Of a stretch of DNA of 64,000 bases, positions 51,510 through 54,767 are shown in pieces; position 1 is the stretch's first letter; the number at the start of each line of letters is the position of its first letter. The stretch covers positions 937,511 through 1,001,510 of the forward strand of contig OZ243938.1 in the NCBI GenBank assembly GCA_965214095.1, given 5' to 3'. The stretch is from Candidatus Poribacteria bacterium (GTDB taxonomy: Bacteria > Poribacteria > WGA-4E > WGA-3G). The position numbers and the translations under genes are program-made. The notes beneath the pieces are model-generated. The model made no database searches and was not told where the DNA came from. It worked only from the letters and a program-made list of their open reading frames with translations.

Positions 51510-51719
51510 GGTTTGACTCCTATGTCTGTGTTTGTGGTAGGATTGAAGCAATTGTTGTGCCAGTTTTTTGTGCTGTTTGTTGCACGTTTTGGTGCAGGTT
51601 CTGATGTTTGCTGCACGTTTTGGTGCGGGTTGTGTGGACTAGGATTTGCTGGAGAATGTCCGAGGCGCAATGAATTGCACGACTTGACAGAAAAACATGC
51701 ATCTGCTACGATACCTACC

Positions 51720-54700
51720 ATGCATGAACTTAACTTGAAAACGACTCATAAACCAGTCAAAGACTATTTCGCCACACTACAAGAATTCTCCGATCAACAA
51801 ATAACCCACGAAGGTGCGGTGAGTGCCCCCTTCGGTTCCTTGTTAGACCATTGCGCGAAACAGATTAACGCTACCTTCTCTCAACAATATGCGATGACAT
51901 CCGCCGCAGGTAACCGTATCGTGATTGACGGTGCCGTGACAAAACTCGGTTTGCCACTCGCCTATTGGGAAGCGAAGGACATCCACGACGACCTGCCTCA
52001 AGCGGTTCAACAGAAACGACAGGCAGGATACCCGCTCGACAATATCCTGTTCCAAACGCCTGAACGCGGTATCCTGATTCAGAACGGACAGATAGCACTG
52101 GACACCGACCTCACTGATAAAAACAACCTTGTCGACACGGTCAAACGGCTGTTCTCCTACACTACACCTGTCCACGAGGATTGGGAACGGGCTGTGACGG
52201 ACTTCAAAACTCGCGTCCCTGACCTCGCCGCTGAGATGAAGAGAATCATTGAGGAACGATATGAGGCGGATACAGACTTTAAAACGGCTTTCAATGGGTT
52301 TTATGAGACGTGCAAGGCTGCCATCAATCCGAACCTATCCCAAAATGCGGTTGAGGAGATGCTTGTGCAGCACATCCTCACGGAACGCATATTCCATAGA
52401 GTGTTCGACCACTCCGATTTCAGTAGACGCAACATCATCGCAAGTGAGATTGAGAAGGTGATTGATATTCTGACACGCAACTATATCAGTCGGGATGCGT
52501 TCCTGCGTCCGTTGGATCGGTTCTATAACGCCATAGAGGAGGCTGCCAGAAATTGCCACGACTTCTCTCAGAAACAACACCTACTGAACACCTTTTACGA
52601 GCAGTTCTTTCAGGGGTTCTCGGAGGATGTCGCCGATACGCACGGCATCGTCTATACACCGCAACCGATTGTGGACTTTATGGTGAACAGCGTATCGCAT
52701 ATCCTCAAAACGGAGTTCGGTCGGTCGCTTTCGGATGAAGGCGTGCATATCATCGACCCGTTTGTCGGCACAGGCAACTTCATCGTGCGACTGATGCACG
52801 AGATTAGCGGTGCCGCGTTGCAACACAAATATCAGCACGAACTCCACTGCAACGAGGTGATGCTCCTGCCCTACTACATCGCCAGTCTGAACATTGAACA
52901 GGAATACTACGACCGCACCAAGCAATATCTGCCGTTTGAGGGGGTTGTGCTTGCGGATACTTTTGAACTGCTTGAGGATAATCAGATGCAACTCTTTACG
53001 GAGGAGAACACCGAACGCGTGGAACGGCAGAAGGATGCGGATATGTTCGTCGTTATTGGTAATCCACCGTATAATTCCAAACAGGTCAATGAAAATGACA
53101 ACAACAAAAACCGTGAATATGAAACGATAGATAAGATGTTGAAAGACACATATTCAAAGGACTCAAAAGCCACAAATAAAAACGCACTTTCGGATCCTTA
53201 TGTAAAAGCAATATTATGGGCTTCAAGACGAATCGGTGAAGAAGGTGTTGTTGTCTTCGTAACAAACAATGGCTTTCTAGATGCAATCGCTTGTGATGGG
53301 ATGCGGAAACACTTGGCACAAGATTTTGACGCTATCTACATCGTGGACTTAAGTGGTAATGTCCGTAAGAATCCAAAACTATCGGGAACAACACATAACG
53401 TCTTTGGTATACAGGTTGGCGTGAGTATCAATTATTTTGTTAAGAAAAGTAATAAATCGGAAGCTGCAAGCATTTTTTATGCGCGTGTAGAAGAAGATTG
53501 GCGAAAAGAACAGAAATACGAGTTTCTCAATATAAAAGAACATTACCAGAACATTGAATGGCATCAGATAACTCCTGATAGTAGACATACATGGCTTACC
53601 GAAGGACTCCATTCTGAATATGAGACTTTTATCCCAATTGGATCAAAACAAAAAACAAATGTATATTCGATATTCAGATCTTACGGTATTGGATTACAGA
53701 CGAGTAGAGATGCATGGTTATTTAATTATCACAAGAATGATCTGATTCAGAATGTAAAACAGACAAGTGAATTTTACAATATGCATGTTCTCAAATTTAG
53801 AGAAATTCCTGAAAACGAACGTGATGTTGATCAGTTTGTTGAAAATGATGGTACCAAAATTAAATGGAGTTCAGGATTAAAATCTAAACTAGAACAAGGA
53901 ATACAGATTGAGTCTGCGGAAACAAATATCAGATCTTCATATTTTCGTCCATATACCAAGATGGCACTCTGTTTTGACAAAACTCTAAATCACCGTAGGT
54001 CAATATTTCCGAACTCTTTCCCAACACCTGAAACTGAAAAAGATAATAGAGTTATTTGCGTTAATGGAATTGGTAATAAAAAACCTTTTCATGTTTTAAT
54101 GGTCAATCTAATTCCCGATCTCCATCTCACAGGTGATACACGATGCTTCCCCTTCTACACCTACGACGAAGACGGCAGCAACCGCAAGGAGAACATCACC
54201 GATTGGTCACTCAATGCCTTCCGCGCTCACTACAATGACGACACCATCAGCAAGTGGGATATTTTCCACTATACTTATGCCCTCCTCCACCATCCCGACT
54301 ACCGAGAGAAGTATCAGGCGAACCTCAAGCGTGACCTACCACATATCCCCTACGCACCCGATTTTAAGGCATTCGCCACGGCAGGCTCGGAACTCGCTGA
54401 CATCCACGTCAACTACGAAACGCAAACCCAATATCAGCATTCCAACCTACTCGAAAACCGAGATGTGCCTTTAGATTGGCGTGTGGAGAAGATGAAACTT
54501 TCCACAGACAAAACTAAGCTCATATACAACGACTATTTCACCATAGACGGTATCCCACCCAAAGTCTTTGAATACCGTCTCGGCACGCGGTCTGCGTTGG
54601 AGTGGGTGATTGACCAGTATCGTGTCAAGACGGACAAACGAAGTGGCATCGTCAACGATCCCAACCGTCCCGACGATGAACGTTATATCGTTGAGCTGAT

Positions 54701-54767
54701 CTTACGCGTCATCACTGTCAGCCTGTTGACGGTGGATATTGTTGGGAAGTTGCCGGATATTGTCTGA
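51720..54767 (+). CDS. MmeI-family type IIL restriction-modification enzyme (N-terminal PD-ExK nuclease fused to an N6-adenine methyltransferase and a C-terminal target-recognition region). Alternative: a PglX-like methyltransferase.
   Basis: Asp70 ... Glu84-Ala-Lys86 in NRIVIDGAV...AYWEAKD at the MmeI-equivalent position. MTase motif I IIDPFVGTGNF and motif IV VIGNPPY. About 1015 aa. Start reassigned to the ATG at 51720. Confidence 0.55.
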   Translation: MHELNLKTTHKPVKDYFATLQEFSDQQITHEGAVSAPFGSLLDHCAKQINATFSQQYAMTSAAGNRIVIDGAVTKLGLPLAYWEAKDIHDDLPQAVQQKRQAGYPLDNILFQTPERGILIQNGQIALDTDLTDKNNLVDTVKRLFSYTTPVHEDWERAVTDFKTRVPDLAAEMKRIIEERYEADTDFKTAFNGFYETCKAAINPNLSQNAVEEMLVQHILTERIFHRVFDHSDFSRRNIIASEIEKVIDILTRNYISRDAFLRPLDRFYNAIEEAARNCHDFSQKQHLLNTFYEQFFQGFSEDVADTHGIVYTPQPIVDFMVNSVSHILKTEFGRSLSDEGVHIIDPFVGTGNFIVRLMHEISGAALQHKYQHELHCNEVMLLPYYIASLNIEQEYYDRTKQYLPFEGVVLADTFELLEDNQMQLFTEENTERVERQKDADMFVVIGNPPYNSKQVNENDNNKNREYETIDKMLKDTYSKDSKATNKNALSDPYVKAILWASRRIGEEGVVVFVTNNGFLDAIACDGMRKHLAQDFDAIYIVDLSGNVRKNPKLSGTTHNVFGIQVGVSINYFVKKSNKSEAASIFYARVEEDWRKEQKYEFLNIKEHYQNIEWHQITPDSRHTWLTEGLHSEYETFIPIGSKQKTNVYSIFRSYGIGLQTSRDAWLFNYHKNDLIQNVKQTSEFYNMHVLKFREIPENERDVDQFVENDGTKIKWSSGLKSKLEQGIQIESAETNIRSSYFRPYTKMALCFDKTLNHRRSIFPNSFPTPETEKDNRVICVNGIGNKKPFHVLMVNLIPDLHLTGDTRCFPFYTYDEDGSNRKENITDWSLNAFRAHYNDDTISKWDIFHYTYALLHHPDYREKYQANLKRDLPHIPYAPDFKAFATAGSELADIHVNYETQTQYQHSNLLENRDVPLDWRVEKMKLSTDKTKLIYNDYFTIDGIPPKVFEYRLGTRSALEWVIDQYRVKTDKRSGIVNDPNRPDDERYIVELILRVITVSLLTVDIVGKLPDIV

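What the first reader, a model, noticed from the sequence alone, without database searches (positions are those of the whole stretch)
51640..54767. Solitary MmeI-family type IIL restriction-modification enzyme embedded in the WD40 cluster
The approx 1015-aa protein has D70 and E84-x-K86 (IDGAV...YWEAKD) at the positions of the MmeI PD-ExK nuclease triad, followed by N6-adenine methyltransferase motifs I (DPFVGTGNF) and IV (NPPY) and a long C-terminal region. Established knowledge: MmeI-type enzymes are single-chain RM systems that cut about 20 bp from the site and modify only one strand, and they need no separate methylase. The candidate promoter (TTGACA-17-TACGAT, at 51683-51711) would give an almost leaderless mRNA. 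The palindrome GCGCAAT-GA-ATTGCAC overlaps its -35 side. The gene's 3' end abuts a 27-bp-TIR inverted-repeat element (54763..54995), which hints at acquisition as cargo.
Basis: partly seen in the sequence, partly recalled or inferred. Interest (0 to 1): 0.5.

Follow-up and report, generated by a model that had tools for sequence, protein, structure and literature searches.

The report
DrdV-type single-chain restriction-modification gene
This is an intact, stand-alone gene for a one-protein restriction-modification enzyme of the already characterised DrdV type (not the MmeI type), common in sponge-symbiont bacteria, so it is an ordinary defence gene, though it carries its own unusually compact promoter.

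Summary
ORF 51720-54767 (+) encodes a 1015-aa protein with D70, E84-x-K86, DPFVGTGNF and NPPY.

The family assignment needs correcting. The protein is colinear over its whole length with DrdV, a biochemically and structurally characterised Type IIL enzyme (PDB 7LO5/7LVV, E=1e-190, about 37% identity). All five DrdV nuclease active-site residues are conserved. Its methyltransferase and target-recognition part is the Type ISP (LlaGI/LlaBIII) kind, but it has no ATPase. MmeI-specific Pfam domains are absent or below threshold. MmeI and BREX PglX match only through the generic methyltransferase core.

No partner gene is present. The neighbours are WD40/PD40 genes, and no neighbour family recurs across 79 related loci.

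Thousands of homologues exist, mainly in Candidatus Poribacteria and other sponge symbionts, often several per genome.

Extra findings:
- The TTGACA-17-TACGAT promoter abutting the ATG is conserved in 31 of 83 loci, which supports a leaderless mRNA.
- The "palindrome" is a copy of a dispersed REP-like repeat, not an operator.
- The 3' inverted repeat belongs to a dispersed hairpin family that follows the gene in its closest relatives.

Verdict: a new member of a known kind, of low interest.

The parts
51662..51683 (+). Copy of a dispersed REP-like palindromic repeat (consensus GAGGCGCAATGAATTGCGCGAC).
   Evidence: Four copies in the window (12549, 51662, 56196, 61111) against 0 expected. The core 14-mer is also present in 10 of 85 loci. 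It is not conserved upstream of the closest homologues.
51684..51712 (+). Sigma-70-type promoter TTGACA-17-(TG at 51704-51705)-TACGAT. It ends 7 nt before ATG 51720, so the predicted transcript is leaderless.
   Evidence: Consensus scan matches 10 of 12 positions, with TG. The pattern TTGnnn-16..18-TAnnnT-5..8-ATG is found in 31 of 83 loci, against 0.34% of random positions and about 1% of other ORFs. Homology between loci stops just upstream of the -35 box.
51720..54767 (+). Gene for a 1015-aa DrdV-family Type IIL restriction-modification enzyme (stop codon 54765-54767).
   Evidence: PDB 7LO5/7LVV (DrdV) E=1.3e-190 over residues 29-1012. PADLOC REase_MTase_IIG full-length model PDLC03621. Pfam Type_ISP_C, ISP_coupler, N6_Mtase, Eco57I. 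Foldseek top hit is DrdV.
51720..52169 (+). N-terminal PD-(D/E)xK endonuclease domain (residues about 1-150). Active-site residues: E31 (51810-51812), D70 (51927-51929), E84 and K86 (51969-51977), K99 (52014-52016).
   Evidence: These residues align with DrdV E25, D64, E79, K81 and K94. They are invariant in 47 N-terminal domains and in 79 full-length homologues. The model shows alpha-beta-beta-beta-alpha-beta topology.
52170..52574 (+). Helical connector (coupler) region (residues about 151-285).
   Evidence: Pfam ISP_coupler, residues 162-280, E=4.6e-17. All-helical in the model. It corresponds to the DrdV 'helical connector' that forms the core dimer interface (bioRxiv 10.1101/2021.01.06.425610).
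52575..53666 (+). Gamma-class N6-adenine DNA methyltransferase domain (residues about 286-649). Motif I DPFVGTGNF is at 52755-52781 and motif IV NPPY at 53061-53072.
   Evidence: Pfam N6_Mtase and Eco57I. Motif I is 99-100% and NPPY 100% conserved in 79 homologues. NPPY aligns with DrdV N448-Y451, which contact the flipped adenine.
53667..54764 (+). C-terminal target-recognition domain of the Type ISP/DrdV kind (residues about 650-1015).
   Evidence: Pfam Type_ISP_C, residues 650-993, E=5.3e-99. This is the most variable part among homologues, especially residues 676-750.
54756..54926 (.). Inverted-repeat hairpin element (46-nt arms 54756-54801 and 54881-54926). It overlaps the last codons and the stop codon of the gene.
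   Evidence: The RNA fold of 54740-55010 has energy -105.5 kcal/mol, z=-8.1. The same element follows the gene in L001, L002 and, in part, L085, despite different neighbouring genes.
54971..54997 (-). Third copy of the 27-nt repeat arm. It abuts the stop codon of the convergent PD40 gene (54997-56001, minus strand).

Best explanation
ORF 51720-54767 encodes a stand-alone, single-chain Type IIL (IIG) restriction-modification enzyme of the DrdV family, in a genome that is most likely Candidatus Poribacteria (a sponge symbiont).

Shown here:
- The domain order is PD-(D/E)xK nuclease, helical connector, gamma-class N6-adenine methyltransferase, then a Type-ISP-type target-recognition domain. There is no ATPase.
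- All catalytic residues are intact.
- No partner gene is present.
- A conserved promoter abuts the start codon.

Inferred by homology to DrdV:
- A monomer binds a short asymmetric site, flips out one adenine and slowly methylates only that strand with S-adenosylmethionine. This protects host DNA.
- When several unmethylated sites are bound at once, as on incoming phage DNA, site-bound molecules assemble in trans through the connector and nuclease domains into dimers and then trimers or tetramers.
- Two nuclease domains then cut both strands at a fixed short distance downstream of the site (10/8 nt in DrdV), without ATP.

Inferred from sequence comparison:
- The gene is transcribed from its own extended -10 promoter as a leaderless mRNA.
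- It is followed by a long hairpin repeat.
- Promoter plus ORF (plus hairpin in the nearest relatives) behave as a self-contained cassette that sits in different places in closely related genomes.
For: - Full-length phmmer match to DrdV (7LO5/7LVV), E=1.3e-190, residues 29-1012 against 23-1025. LlaGI and LlaBIII match only from residue 187 onward, which is the methyltransferase and target-recognition part.
- About 37% identity to DrdV over 864 aligned columns.
- DrdV active-site residues E25, D64, E79, K81 and K94 align with E31, D70, E84, K86 and K99. These are invariant in 47 and in 79 homologues.
- Pfam: Type_ISP_C, ISP_coupler, N6_Mtase and Eco57I, with no helicase domain.
- PADLOC full-length REase_MTase_IIG model, 31-1011 against 25-1012 of 1024.
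- Foldseek ranking: DrdV 5.8e-54, then LlaGI, then LlaBIII, and far below them everything else.
- Neighbours are WD40, PD40, beta-helix and UbiA genes. No neighbour family recurs in more than 10 of 79 loci. There are no BREX genes in the three closest relatives' loci.
- Promoter conservation is shown.
- The 93%, 86% and 84% identical homologues sit in different gene neighbourhoods.
- GC3 of the gene is the highest in the window, z about +2.7.
Against: - No biochemical data exist for this protein. The recognition sequence, the cut distance and the dependence on multiple sites are extrapolated from a 37%-identical enzyme.
- Several DrdV interface residues are not conserved: E230/D231 correspond to R236/R237, and R46 to T52. 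Oligomer contacts may therefore differ.
- The AlphaFold model is only of moderate quality (mean pLDDT 64.5).
- The transcription start is inferred, not mapped.
- The exact protein is not in the public collection searched, so organism assignment rests on homologues.
Confidence: 0.9

Rival explanations
1. It is a member of the MmeI family of Type IIL enzymes. It would then have an MmeI-type nuclease, helical, methyltransferase and target-recognition architecture and cut about 20/18 nt from the site.
For: - It has the same broad class and domain order (N-terminal PD-ExK nuclease, gamma-class N6A methyltransferase, C-terminal recognition domain).
- There is a weak MmeI_Mtase Pfam hit (E=0.0013).
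- Foldseek matches MmeI 5HR4 at E=4.7e-6.
Against: - The MmeI_Mtase hit is below Pfam's cutoff (18.4 against 27 bits), and no MmeI_N, MmeI_hel, MmeI_TRD or MmeI_C hit was found.
- No MmeI chain appears in phmmer or hmmsearch of the PDB with the whole protein, the N-terminal domain or its profile, even at E<=10.
- Identity to MmeI is 12%, confined to the methyltransferase core, about 48 orders of magnitude weaker than the DrdV match.
Confidence: 0.03
2. It is the methyltransferase component (PglX/BrxX-like, or MADS mad2-like) of a multi-gene defence system rather than a self-sufficient RM enzyme.
For: - Local PADLOC hits to PglX (32 bits, residues 248-365) and mad2 (E=1.4e-19).
- Foldseek matches to BrxX/PglX at about 3e-6.
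- A PADLOC mad3/mad8 hit elsewhere in the window.
Against: - The PglX and mad2 hits cover only the shared methyltransferase region.
- No pglZ, brxA, brxB, brxC or brxL-like gene lies within about 12 kb or in the three closest relatives' loci.
- No conserved neighbour family exists across 79 loci.
- The mad3/mad8 hit is a MalK-type ABC transporter ATPase 48 kb away, beyond an rRNA locus.
- An intact, invariant nuclease site is present, which PglX lacks.
Confidence: 0.02
3. It is a decayed Type ISP enzyme that lost its helicase, or a nuclease-dead orphan methyltransferase used for epigenetic regulation rather than restriction.
For: - The methyltransferase and recognition part is most similar in PADLOC to a 1646-aa ISP-type model (E=6.7e-233) and to LlaGI/LlaBIII.
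- 3 of 82 related loci carry truncated ORFs.
Against: - The 1015-1030-aa architecture is shared by thousands of homologues and by the active enzyme DrdV.
- The N-terminal domain is DrdV-type, not the ISP Mrr-like nuclease.
- All nuclease residues are 100% conserved, which implies selection for cleavage.
- The ORF in the window is intact.
Confidence: 0.05
4. On mobility only: the gene is cargo inside a transposable element bounded by the 27-bp terminal inverted repeats.
For: - The inverted-repeat element follows the gene in the window, L001 and L002, and partly in L085, although the neighbouring genes differ.
- The repeat motif is 4 times denser in RM-gene flanks than in other non-coding DNA of the same loci (27 against 30 hits, p=7e-7).
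- In L003, L009 and L018 a repeat arm ends 4 nt before the -35 box.
- A degenerate copy lies at 51630, upstream of the gene.
Against: - Both good arms in the window lie downstream of the gene, so they do not bracket it.
- The same repeat follows unrelated genes (41890, 48511, 59538) and fills most intergenic gaps of L002, as REP or MITE-like hairpins do.
- No transposase is adjacent and no target-site duplication was seen.
- Loci are phylogenetically related, so the enrichment statistic overstates independence.
- No empty site could be found.
Confidence: 0.2

Closest known systems
DrdV (Deinococcus wulumuqiensis 479; Type IIL RM enzyme; PDB 7LO5/7LVV; Shen et al., bioRxiv 10.1101/2021.01.06.425610)
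   Same: - Similar length (1015 against 1029 aa) and the same colinear four-domain architecture.
- All five nuclease active-site residues, motif I and NPPY are conserved.
- No ATPase and no partner gene.
- E=1e-190, about 37% identity.
   Different: - The recognition domain is only about 36% identical, so the recognition sequence is probably different and is unknown.
- Several charged oligomer-interface residues differ or are charge-swapped (DrdV K8:E41 corresponds to D15:K47; E230/D231 to R236/R237).
- The host phylum is different.
- A leaderless-type promoter and a 3' hairpin repeat are seen here; neither is described in the DrdV preprint read here.
[quoted passage not shown]
   Same: The coupler, methyltransferase and recognition domains are clearly homologous (E=4e-149 and 3e-141 from residue 187 onward; Pfam ISP_coupler and Type_ISP_C).
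   Different: - The RecA-like ATPase/translocase is absent.
- The N-terminal nuclease does not match the ISP nuclease at sequence level.
- The expected mechanism is assembly of site-bound molecules in trans, not ATP-driven translocation and collision.
MmeI (Type IIL; PDB 5HR4)
   Same: - Same enzyme class: single chain, N-terminal PD-ExK nuclease followed by a gamma-class N6A methyltransferase and a recognition domain.
- One-strand methylation and a need for multiple sites (as stated in the DrdV paper).
   Different: - No membership in any MmeI Pfam domain family.
- 12% identity by Foldseek, confined to the methyltransferase core.
- MmeI reaches 20/18 nt, while DrdV cuts at 10/8.
BREX PglX/BrxX and MADS mad2 methyltransferases
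   Same: Shared gamma-class N6-adenine methyltransferase core.
   Different: - Those proteins lack a nuclease active site and act with pglZ, brxC and other partner genes.
- Here the nuclease is intact and no partner genes are linked.
Leaderless transcripts of C-protein/REase operons in classical Type II RM systems (AhdI, Esp1396I, PvuII; PMC2275141, PMC2691842, PMC2175313)
   Same: An RM gene whose promoter places the transcription start at or next to the start codon.
   Different: - In those systems a controller protein and C-boxes time nuclease expression relative to a separate methylase.
- Here there is no C protein and no conserved operator, and both activities are in one polypeptide.

Membership tests
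DrdV-type Type IIL RM enzymes | Full-length colinearity with DrdV (nuclease, connector, methyltransferase, recognition domain in one chain of about 1000-1030 aa) | tested here: met
   phmmer E=1.3e-190, residues 29-1012 against 23-1025 of 1029. PADLOC PDLC03621, 31-1011 against 25-1012 of 1024. Foldseek top hit 7LO5, E=5.8e-54.
DrdV-type Type IIL RM enzymes | PD-(D/E)xK active site equivalent to DrdV E25, D64, E79, K81, K94 | tested here: met
   E31, D70, E84, K86 and K99 align with them and are invariant in 47 and in 79 homologues.
DrdV-type Type IIL RM enzymes | Gamma-class N6-adenine methyltransferase with SAM-binding motif I and NPPY | tested here: met
   Pfam N6_Mtase and Eco57I. DPFVGTGNF at residues 346-354 (99-100% conserved) and NPPY at 448-451 (100% conserved).
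DrdV-type Type IIL RM enzymes | Type ISP/DrdV-type C-terminal target-recognition domain and helical coupler | tested here: met
   Type_ISP_C E=5.3e-99; ISP_coupler E=4.6e-17.
DrdV-type Type IIL RM enzymes | No ATPase/translocase domain and no separate methylase or specificity subunit | tested here: met
   No helicase or ATPase Pfam hit. Neighbours are WD40/PD40 genes. No recurrent neighbour family in 79 loci.
DrdV-type Type IIL RM enzymes | [quoted passage not shown] | not testable with these tools
   Needs a methylome and in vitro cleavage assays.
MmeI family (Type IIL) | Matches to the MmeI-specific Pfam domains (MmeI_N, MmeI_hel, MmeI_Mtase, MmeI_TRD, MmeI_C) above their gathering scores | tested here: not met
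   Only MmeI_Mtase appears, at 18.4 bits against a cutoff of 27. None of the others appears at E<=0.01.
MmeI family (Type IIL) | N-terminal nuclease triad alignable with the MmeI nuclease core | tested here: not met
   The N-terminal 160 aa, and a 47-sequence profile of it, hit only DrdV in the PDB at E<=10. The DrdV preprint reports that the MmeI nuclease domain was not observable in its crystal structure, so a comparison with the 5HR4 coordinates would probably not cover that domain.
Type ISP RM enzymes (LlaGI/LlaBIII) | RecA-like ATPase/translocase between the nuclease and the coupler | tested here: not met
   Similarity to LlaGI and LlaBIII begins at query residue 187, which corresponds to chain residues 581 and 745. 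No helicase Pfam domain was found, and the protein is 1015 aa against about 1570.
BREX PglX/BrxX | Full-length PglX profile match and linkage to pglZ, brxC, brxA, brxB | tested here: not met
   The PglX hit is 32 bits over residues 248-365 only. No such neighbours are found in the window or in L001, L002 or L085.

The most novel reading that the evidence does not exclude
In sponge-symbiont genomes, DrdV-type RM genes may form a discrete, mobile single-gene defence cassette. The cassette would consist of an own leaderless promoter, the ORF and a 3' hairpin repeat. It would relocate among repeat-rich intergenic sites, with the dispersed inverted-repeat or REP-like elements serving as the recombination or mobilisation sites. 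That would be a route of defence-gene shuffling not yet described for Type IIL enzymes.
Probability: 0.2. Interest if true: 0.45.

Novelty: new member of a known kind. Interest (0 to 1): 0.2.

Why it matters
It matters little beyond annotation.
- The family label changes from MmeI-type to DrdV-type. That changes the expected cut distance (about 10/8 rather than 20/18) and the mechanism (cleavage in trans by oligomers of site-bound molecules).
- Public names given to close homologues ("DNA helicase", "N-6 DNA methylase") are misleading.
- The family is very abundant and multi-copy in Poribacteria and other sponge symbionts. This fits the known enrichment of RM systems in sponge microbiomes, and the variable recognition domains could be a source of new specificities for enzyme discovery.
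- The conserved promoter abutting the ATG offers a testable case of leaderless expression of a single-chain RM enzyme.

Tried and rejected
- Exact-sequence look-up of the protein: not on record.
- Empty-site test for the "cargo" idea. Homologues of the flanking PD40 gene were found. The 81% homologue could not be located. The 78% and 77% homologues are not syntenic with the window, and the 84% RM homologue lies about 33 kb from the PD40 homologue on the same contig. The test was therefore not possible.
- MADS-like system: the PADLOC mad3/mad8 hits in the window turned out to be a MalK-type ABC-transporter ATPase at 3347-4438. Rejected.
- Palindrome as an operator or C-box: it is a copy of a dispersed repeat and is not conserved upstream of close homologues. 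Rejected.
- Integron attC-like reading of the hairpin repeat. I considered it, but the ends fit the attC core consensus poorly (my own reading of the consensus). Gene orientations are mixed, no integrase is present, and Rfam found nothing there. Not pursued.
- AlphaFold model: only mean pLDDT 64.5 and pTM 0.42, from a shallow alignment of sequences 65% identical or more. It was used only for ranking PDB hits and for N-domain topology.
- Search for under-represented asymmetric motifs: not attempted, because 64 kb gives too few expected occurrences of 6-7-mers.
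Full report
**1. Observation**

The + strand carries an open frame at 51513..54767. Homologues all begin at the methionine encoded at 51720: M1 is invariant in alignments A2 and A4.

Translation confirms the stated residues and motifs:
- D70 at 51927-51929
- E84-A-K86 at 51969-51977
- DPFVGTGNF at residues 346-354
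- NPPY at residues 448-451

The promoter-like site TTGACA-17-TACGAT lies at 51684-51712. It matches 10 of 12 consensus positions and has a TG extended -10.

The palindrome lies at 51665-51680. Its arms match at 6 of 7 positions. It ends 3 nt before the -35 box rather than overlapping it.

The 27-nt inverted arms lie at 54759-54785 and 54971-54997. A perfect inner copy at 54897-54923 makes a longer 46-nt pairing, 54756-54801 with 54881-54926. The left arm contains the last codons and the stop codon of the gene.

**2. What the protein is**

Pfam finds the following:
- Type_ISP_C, residues 650-993, E=5e-99
- ISP_coupler, residues 162-280
- N6_Mtase and Eco57I

Of the MmeI-specific domain families, only MmeI_Mtase appears. 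It scores 18.4 bits, below its cutoff of 27.

PADLOC gives a full-length match to a 1024-position REase_MTase_IIG model, 31-1011 against 25-1012. It also gives partial matches to 1600-residue ISP-type models that cover only the methyltransferase and recognition part.

Against all PDB sequences the best hit is 7LO5/7LVV, at E=1.3e-190 over residues 29-1012 of the query and 23-1025 of the 1029-aa chain. LlaGI and LlaBIII match only from query residue 187 onward.

7LO5/7LVV is DrdV from Deinococcus wulumuqiensis, a Type IIL enzyme characterised biochemically and by cryoEM (bioRxiv 10.1101/2021.01.06.425610). Identity to DrdV over 864 aligned columns is about 37%: nuclease 31%, connector 33%, methyltransferase 42%, recognition domain 36%.

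**3. The nuclease triad**

The DrdV paper names D64 and E79 as metal ligands and K81 as the canonical lysine whose mutation abolishes catalysis. K94 and E25 complete the site.

In the phmmer alignment these residues correspond to D70, E84, K86, K99 and E31 of the query. All five are invariant in 47 N-terminal domains and in 79 full-length homologues. In those 79, NPPY is also 100% conserved and motif I 99-100%.

The AlphaFold model is of moderate quality (mean pLDDT 64.5). In the N-domain it shows the alpha-beta-beta-beta-alpha-beta order expected of a PD-(D/E)xK core, with D70 and E84 on adjacent strands.

The N-terminal 160 residues, searched alone or as a 47-sequence profile, hit only DrdV in the PDB (E=1.4e-14 and 3.3e-31). 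They hit no MmeI, BpuSI, LlaGI or LlaBIII chain, even at E<=10.

Foldseek with the whole model ranks the hits as follows:
- DrdV, 5.8e-54
- LlaGI, 1e-41
- LlaBIII, 1e-39
- CamA, BrxX/PglX and MmeI, near 1e-6 with 12-14% identity, i.e. only the shared methyltransferase core

**4. Solitary or part of a system**

The genes within about 12 kb on either side are four WD40 proteins upstream, then a PD40 protein, three WD40 proteins, a beta-helix protein and a UbiA prenyltransferase downstream.

PADLOC finds no BREX component in the window. The one hit to "mad3/mad8" is a MalK-type ABC ATPase at 3347-4438, 48 kb away and beyond a 23S-5S rRNA locus.

The loci of the 93%, 86% and 84% identical homologues also lack any partner gene. 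In an all-against-all comparison of ORFs within 6 kb of the gene in 79 loci, no neighbour family recurs in more than 10 loci.

The gene is a self-sufficient unit, as expected for a Type IIL enzyme.

**5. Distribution**

More than 7,900 proteins match at E<=1e-10. They have the same Pfam set and lengths of about 1015-1060 aa.

In one-genome-per-species GTDB contigs, 592 stretches encode relatives. The best 80 are mostly Candidatus Poribacteria. Candidatus Latescibacterota, Caldilineaceae and Acidobacteriota are also represented, and there are often 2-4 copies per genome.

Source names given to close homologues are "DNA helicase" or "N-6 DNA methylase". These are uninformative or wrong.

Variation between homologues is concentrated in the recognition domain, especially residues 676-750. 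This is consistent with diversification of specificity.

**6. Expression**

The pattern TTGnnn-(16-18)-TAnnnT-(5-8)-ATG directly abuts the start codon in 31 of 83 loci. This includes 25 of the 32 closest loci, and 30 of the 31 have TGn before the -10 hexamer. The same pattern occurs at 0.34% of random positions and at about 1% of other long ORFs in the same loci.

Among the four closest loci, which have unrelated upstream genes, sequence similarity begins at the -35 box. Across 1064 locus pairs, homology running out of the gene stops within 50 nt upstream of the ATG in all but 10 pairs. For the window, homology with L002, L004 and L001 ends at 41, 39 and 37 nt, which is just through the -35 box.

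This is good comparative evidence for a promoter that travels with the gene. With 5-8 nt between the -10 hexamer and the ATG, it should give a leaderless mRNA. The transcription start itself is inferred, not mapped.

Leaderless transcripts are known for controller-protein operons of classical Type II systems (PMC2275141, PMC2691842). No controller gene or conserved operator exists here.

**7. The palindrome**

The palindrome is part of a dispersed REP-like repeat with consensus GAGGCGCAATGAATTGCGCGAC. There are four copies in the window (12549, 51662, 56196, 61111; 0 expected), and the core 14-mer occurs in 10 of the 85 fetched loci.

The copy next to the gene is cut short exactly where the -35 box begins. 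It is absent upstream of the closest homologues. It is therefore not a gene-specific operator.

**8. The 3' inverted repeat**

The arm ATTGTCTGAACCAGGATT... also occurs at 41890, and in degenerate form at 48511, 59538 and 51630. Apart from the copy at 51630, which lies upstream of the RM gene, these lie just after the 3' end of a gene. It fills most intergenic gaps in L002.

The region 54740-55010 folds into a long hairpin, at -105.5 kcal/mol and z=-8.1, but it has no U-tract. The element looks like a REP or MITE-type 3' hairpin family.

The same element follows the RM gene in L001, L002 and partly L085, although those loci differ in gene neighbourhood. The motif is 4-fold denser in RM-gene flanks than in other non-coding DNA of the same loci, 27 against 30 hits, p=7e-7. 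That test treats related loci as independent, so it overstates the significance.

In the window both good arms lie downstream of the gene, and no transposase or target duplication is seen. "Cargo of a TIR element" is therefore not shown. The safer reading is that the hairpin is the 3' end of a compact cassette.

Two further observations fit horizontal mobility, which is usual for RM genes. The gene's GC3 (0.50) is the highest of 34 genes in the window (mean 0.38, sd 0.045). The closest homologues sit in different genomic contexts.

**9. Mechanism**

Shown here:
- The domain architecture
- Intact catalytic motifs
- Absence of an ATPase and of partner genes
- A conserved promoter

Inferred from DrdV:
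- A monomer binds an asymmetric site and flips out one adenine.
- Methylation of that single strand is slow.
- The nuclease domain does not reach the DNA held by its own subunit.
- Two site-bound molecules dimerise through their connector regions, and each places its nuclease on the other's DNA.
- A third and fourth site-bound molecule add a second nuclease at each cleavage site.
- The result is a rapid double-strand cut 10/8 nt downstream of the site, leaving a 2-nt 3' overhang.

Some DrdV interface residues are replaced here. The DrdV pair K8:E41 corresponds to D15:K47, which is a possible charge swap. E230/D231 correspond to R236/R237. Details of assembly may therefore differ. The recognition sequence cannot be predicted from these data.

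**10. Verdict**

This is a well-preserved new member of the known DrdV family of Type IIL restriction-modification enzymes, in a Poribacteria-like genome. The "MmeI-family" label, the about 20-bp reach and the operator reading of the palindrome are not supported. Interest is low (0.2). The only mildly novel aspect is the conserved leaderless-type promoter and the cassette-like behaviour of the gene.

Noticed in passing
window 24294-27640 (minus strand): A 5S rRNA (24294-24410), a complete 23S rRNA (24471-27469) and tRNA-Ala(TGC) (27568-27640) lie here. No 16S rRNA gene is anywhere in the window, so the 16S gene appears unlinked from the 23S-5S genes, or is at least more than 36 kb away on that side.
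   Followed up: partly
window 41890-41967, 48511-48527, 59538-59554 (and 54756-54997): A dispersed inverted-repeat hairpin family (arm ATTGTCTGAACCAGGATT..., built of CAGGATT-like sub-repeats). It sits just after the 3' ends of WD40/PD40 genes on either strand. It is very abundant in related locus L002 (12 hits in 23 kb).
   Followed up: partly
window 12549-12570, 56196-56217, 61111-61132 (and 51662-51683): A second dispersed REP-like palindromic repeat, with consensus (A)GAATGT..GAGGCGCAATGAATTGCGCGACTACGAA. It is also present in 10 of 85 related loci, often near the RM genes.
   Followed up: partly
window 41768-41810 (minus strand), upstream of WD40 gene 39888-41768: A second gene in the window has a leaderless-type promoter abutting its ATG (TTGGAT-17-TATAAT-6-ATG). 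Apart from the RM gene, it is the only one of 34 long ORFs in the window with this pattern.
   Followed up: no
window 54933-54957; also L001 about 13040-13070 and 13240-13265, L085 upstream of the RM gene: Short GC-rich hairpins of the form CGGTT(N)3-4AAACCG (for example GCGAGGTTGGGAAACCTCGC) recur in the intergenic DNA around RM genes in several loci. They may be a third small repeat family.
   Followed up: no
window 51569-51640: An imperfect direct duplication of about 31 bp (GTTTGYTGCACGTTTTGGTGCRGGTT...) lies in the divergent intergenic region between the WD40 gene and the RM promoter. The RM reading frame stays open for 69 codons upstream of the true start.
   Followed up: no
window 3347-4438 (+): A MalK-type ABC-transporter ATPase (ABC_tran + OB_MalK + TOBE_2) scores E=6e-31 against the PADLOC 'mad3' model, and also hits mad8 and AriA. 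This is a generic ATPase cross-hit that could be mistaken for a defence gene.
   Followed up: yes
L018, L032, L046 (related loci): Three of 82 related RM genes have truncated reading frames (371, 796 and 801 codons). They are possible pseudogenes or assembly errors.
   Followed up: no
L001 4653-8278: In the genome with the 93%-identical homologue, the RM gene lies about 2-5 kb downstream of a Tn5-type transposase gene and an IS605 OrfB/TnpB-like gene. This is a different, mobile-element-rich context.
   Followed up: no
window 39888-51551 and 56509-60691: Seven WD40-repeat genes lie in 21 kb. Several have dockerin-like and C-terminal sorting-type tails, and the two immediately upstream of the RM gene have raised GC3 (0.46-0.48). 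This is typical of the eukaryote-like repeat protein expansions of Poribacteria.
   Followed up: partly
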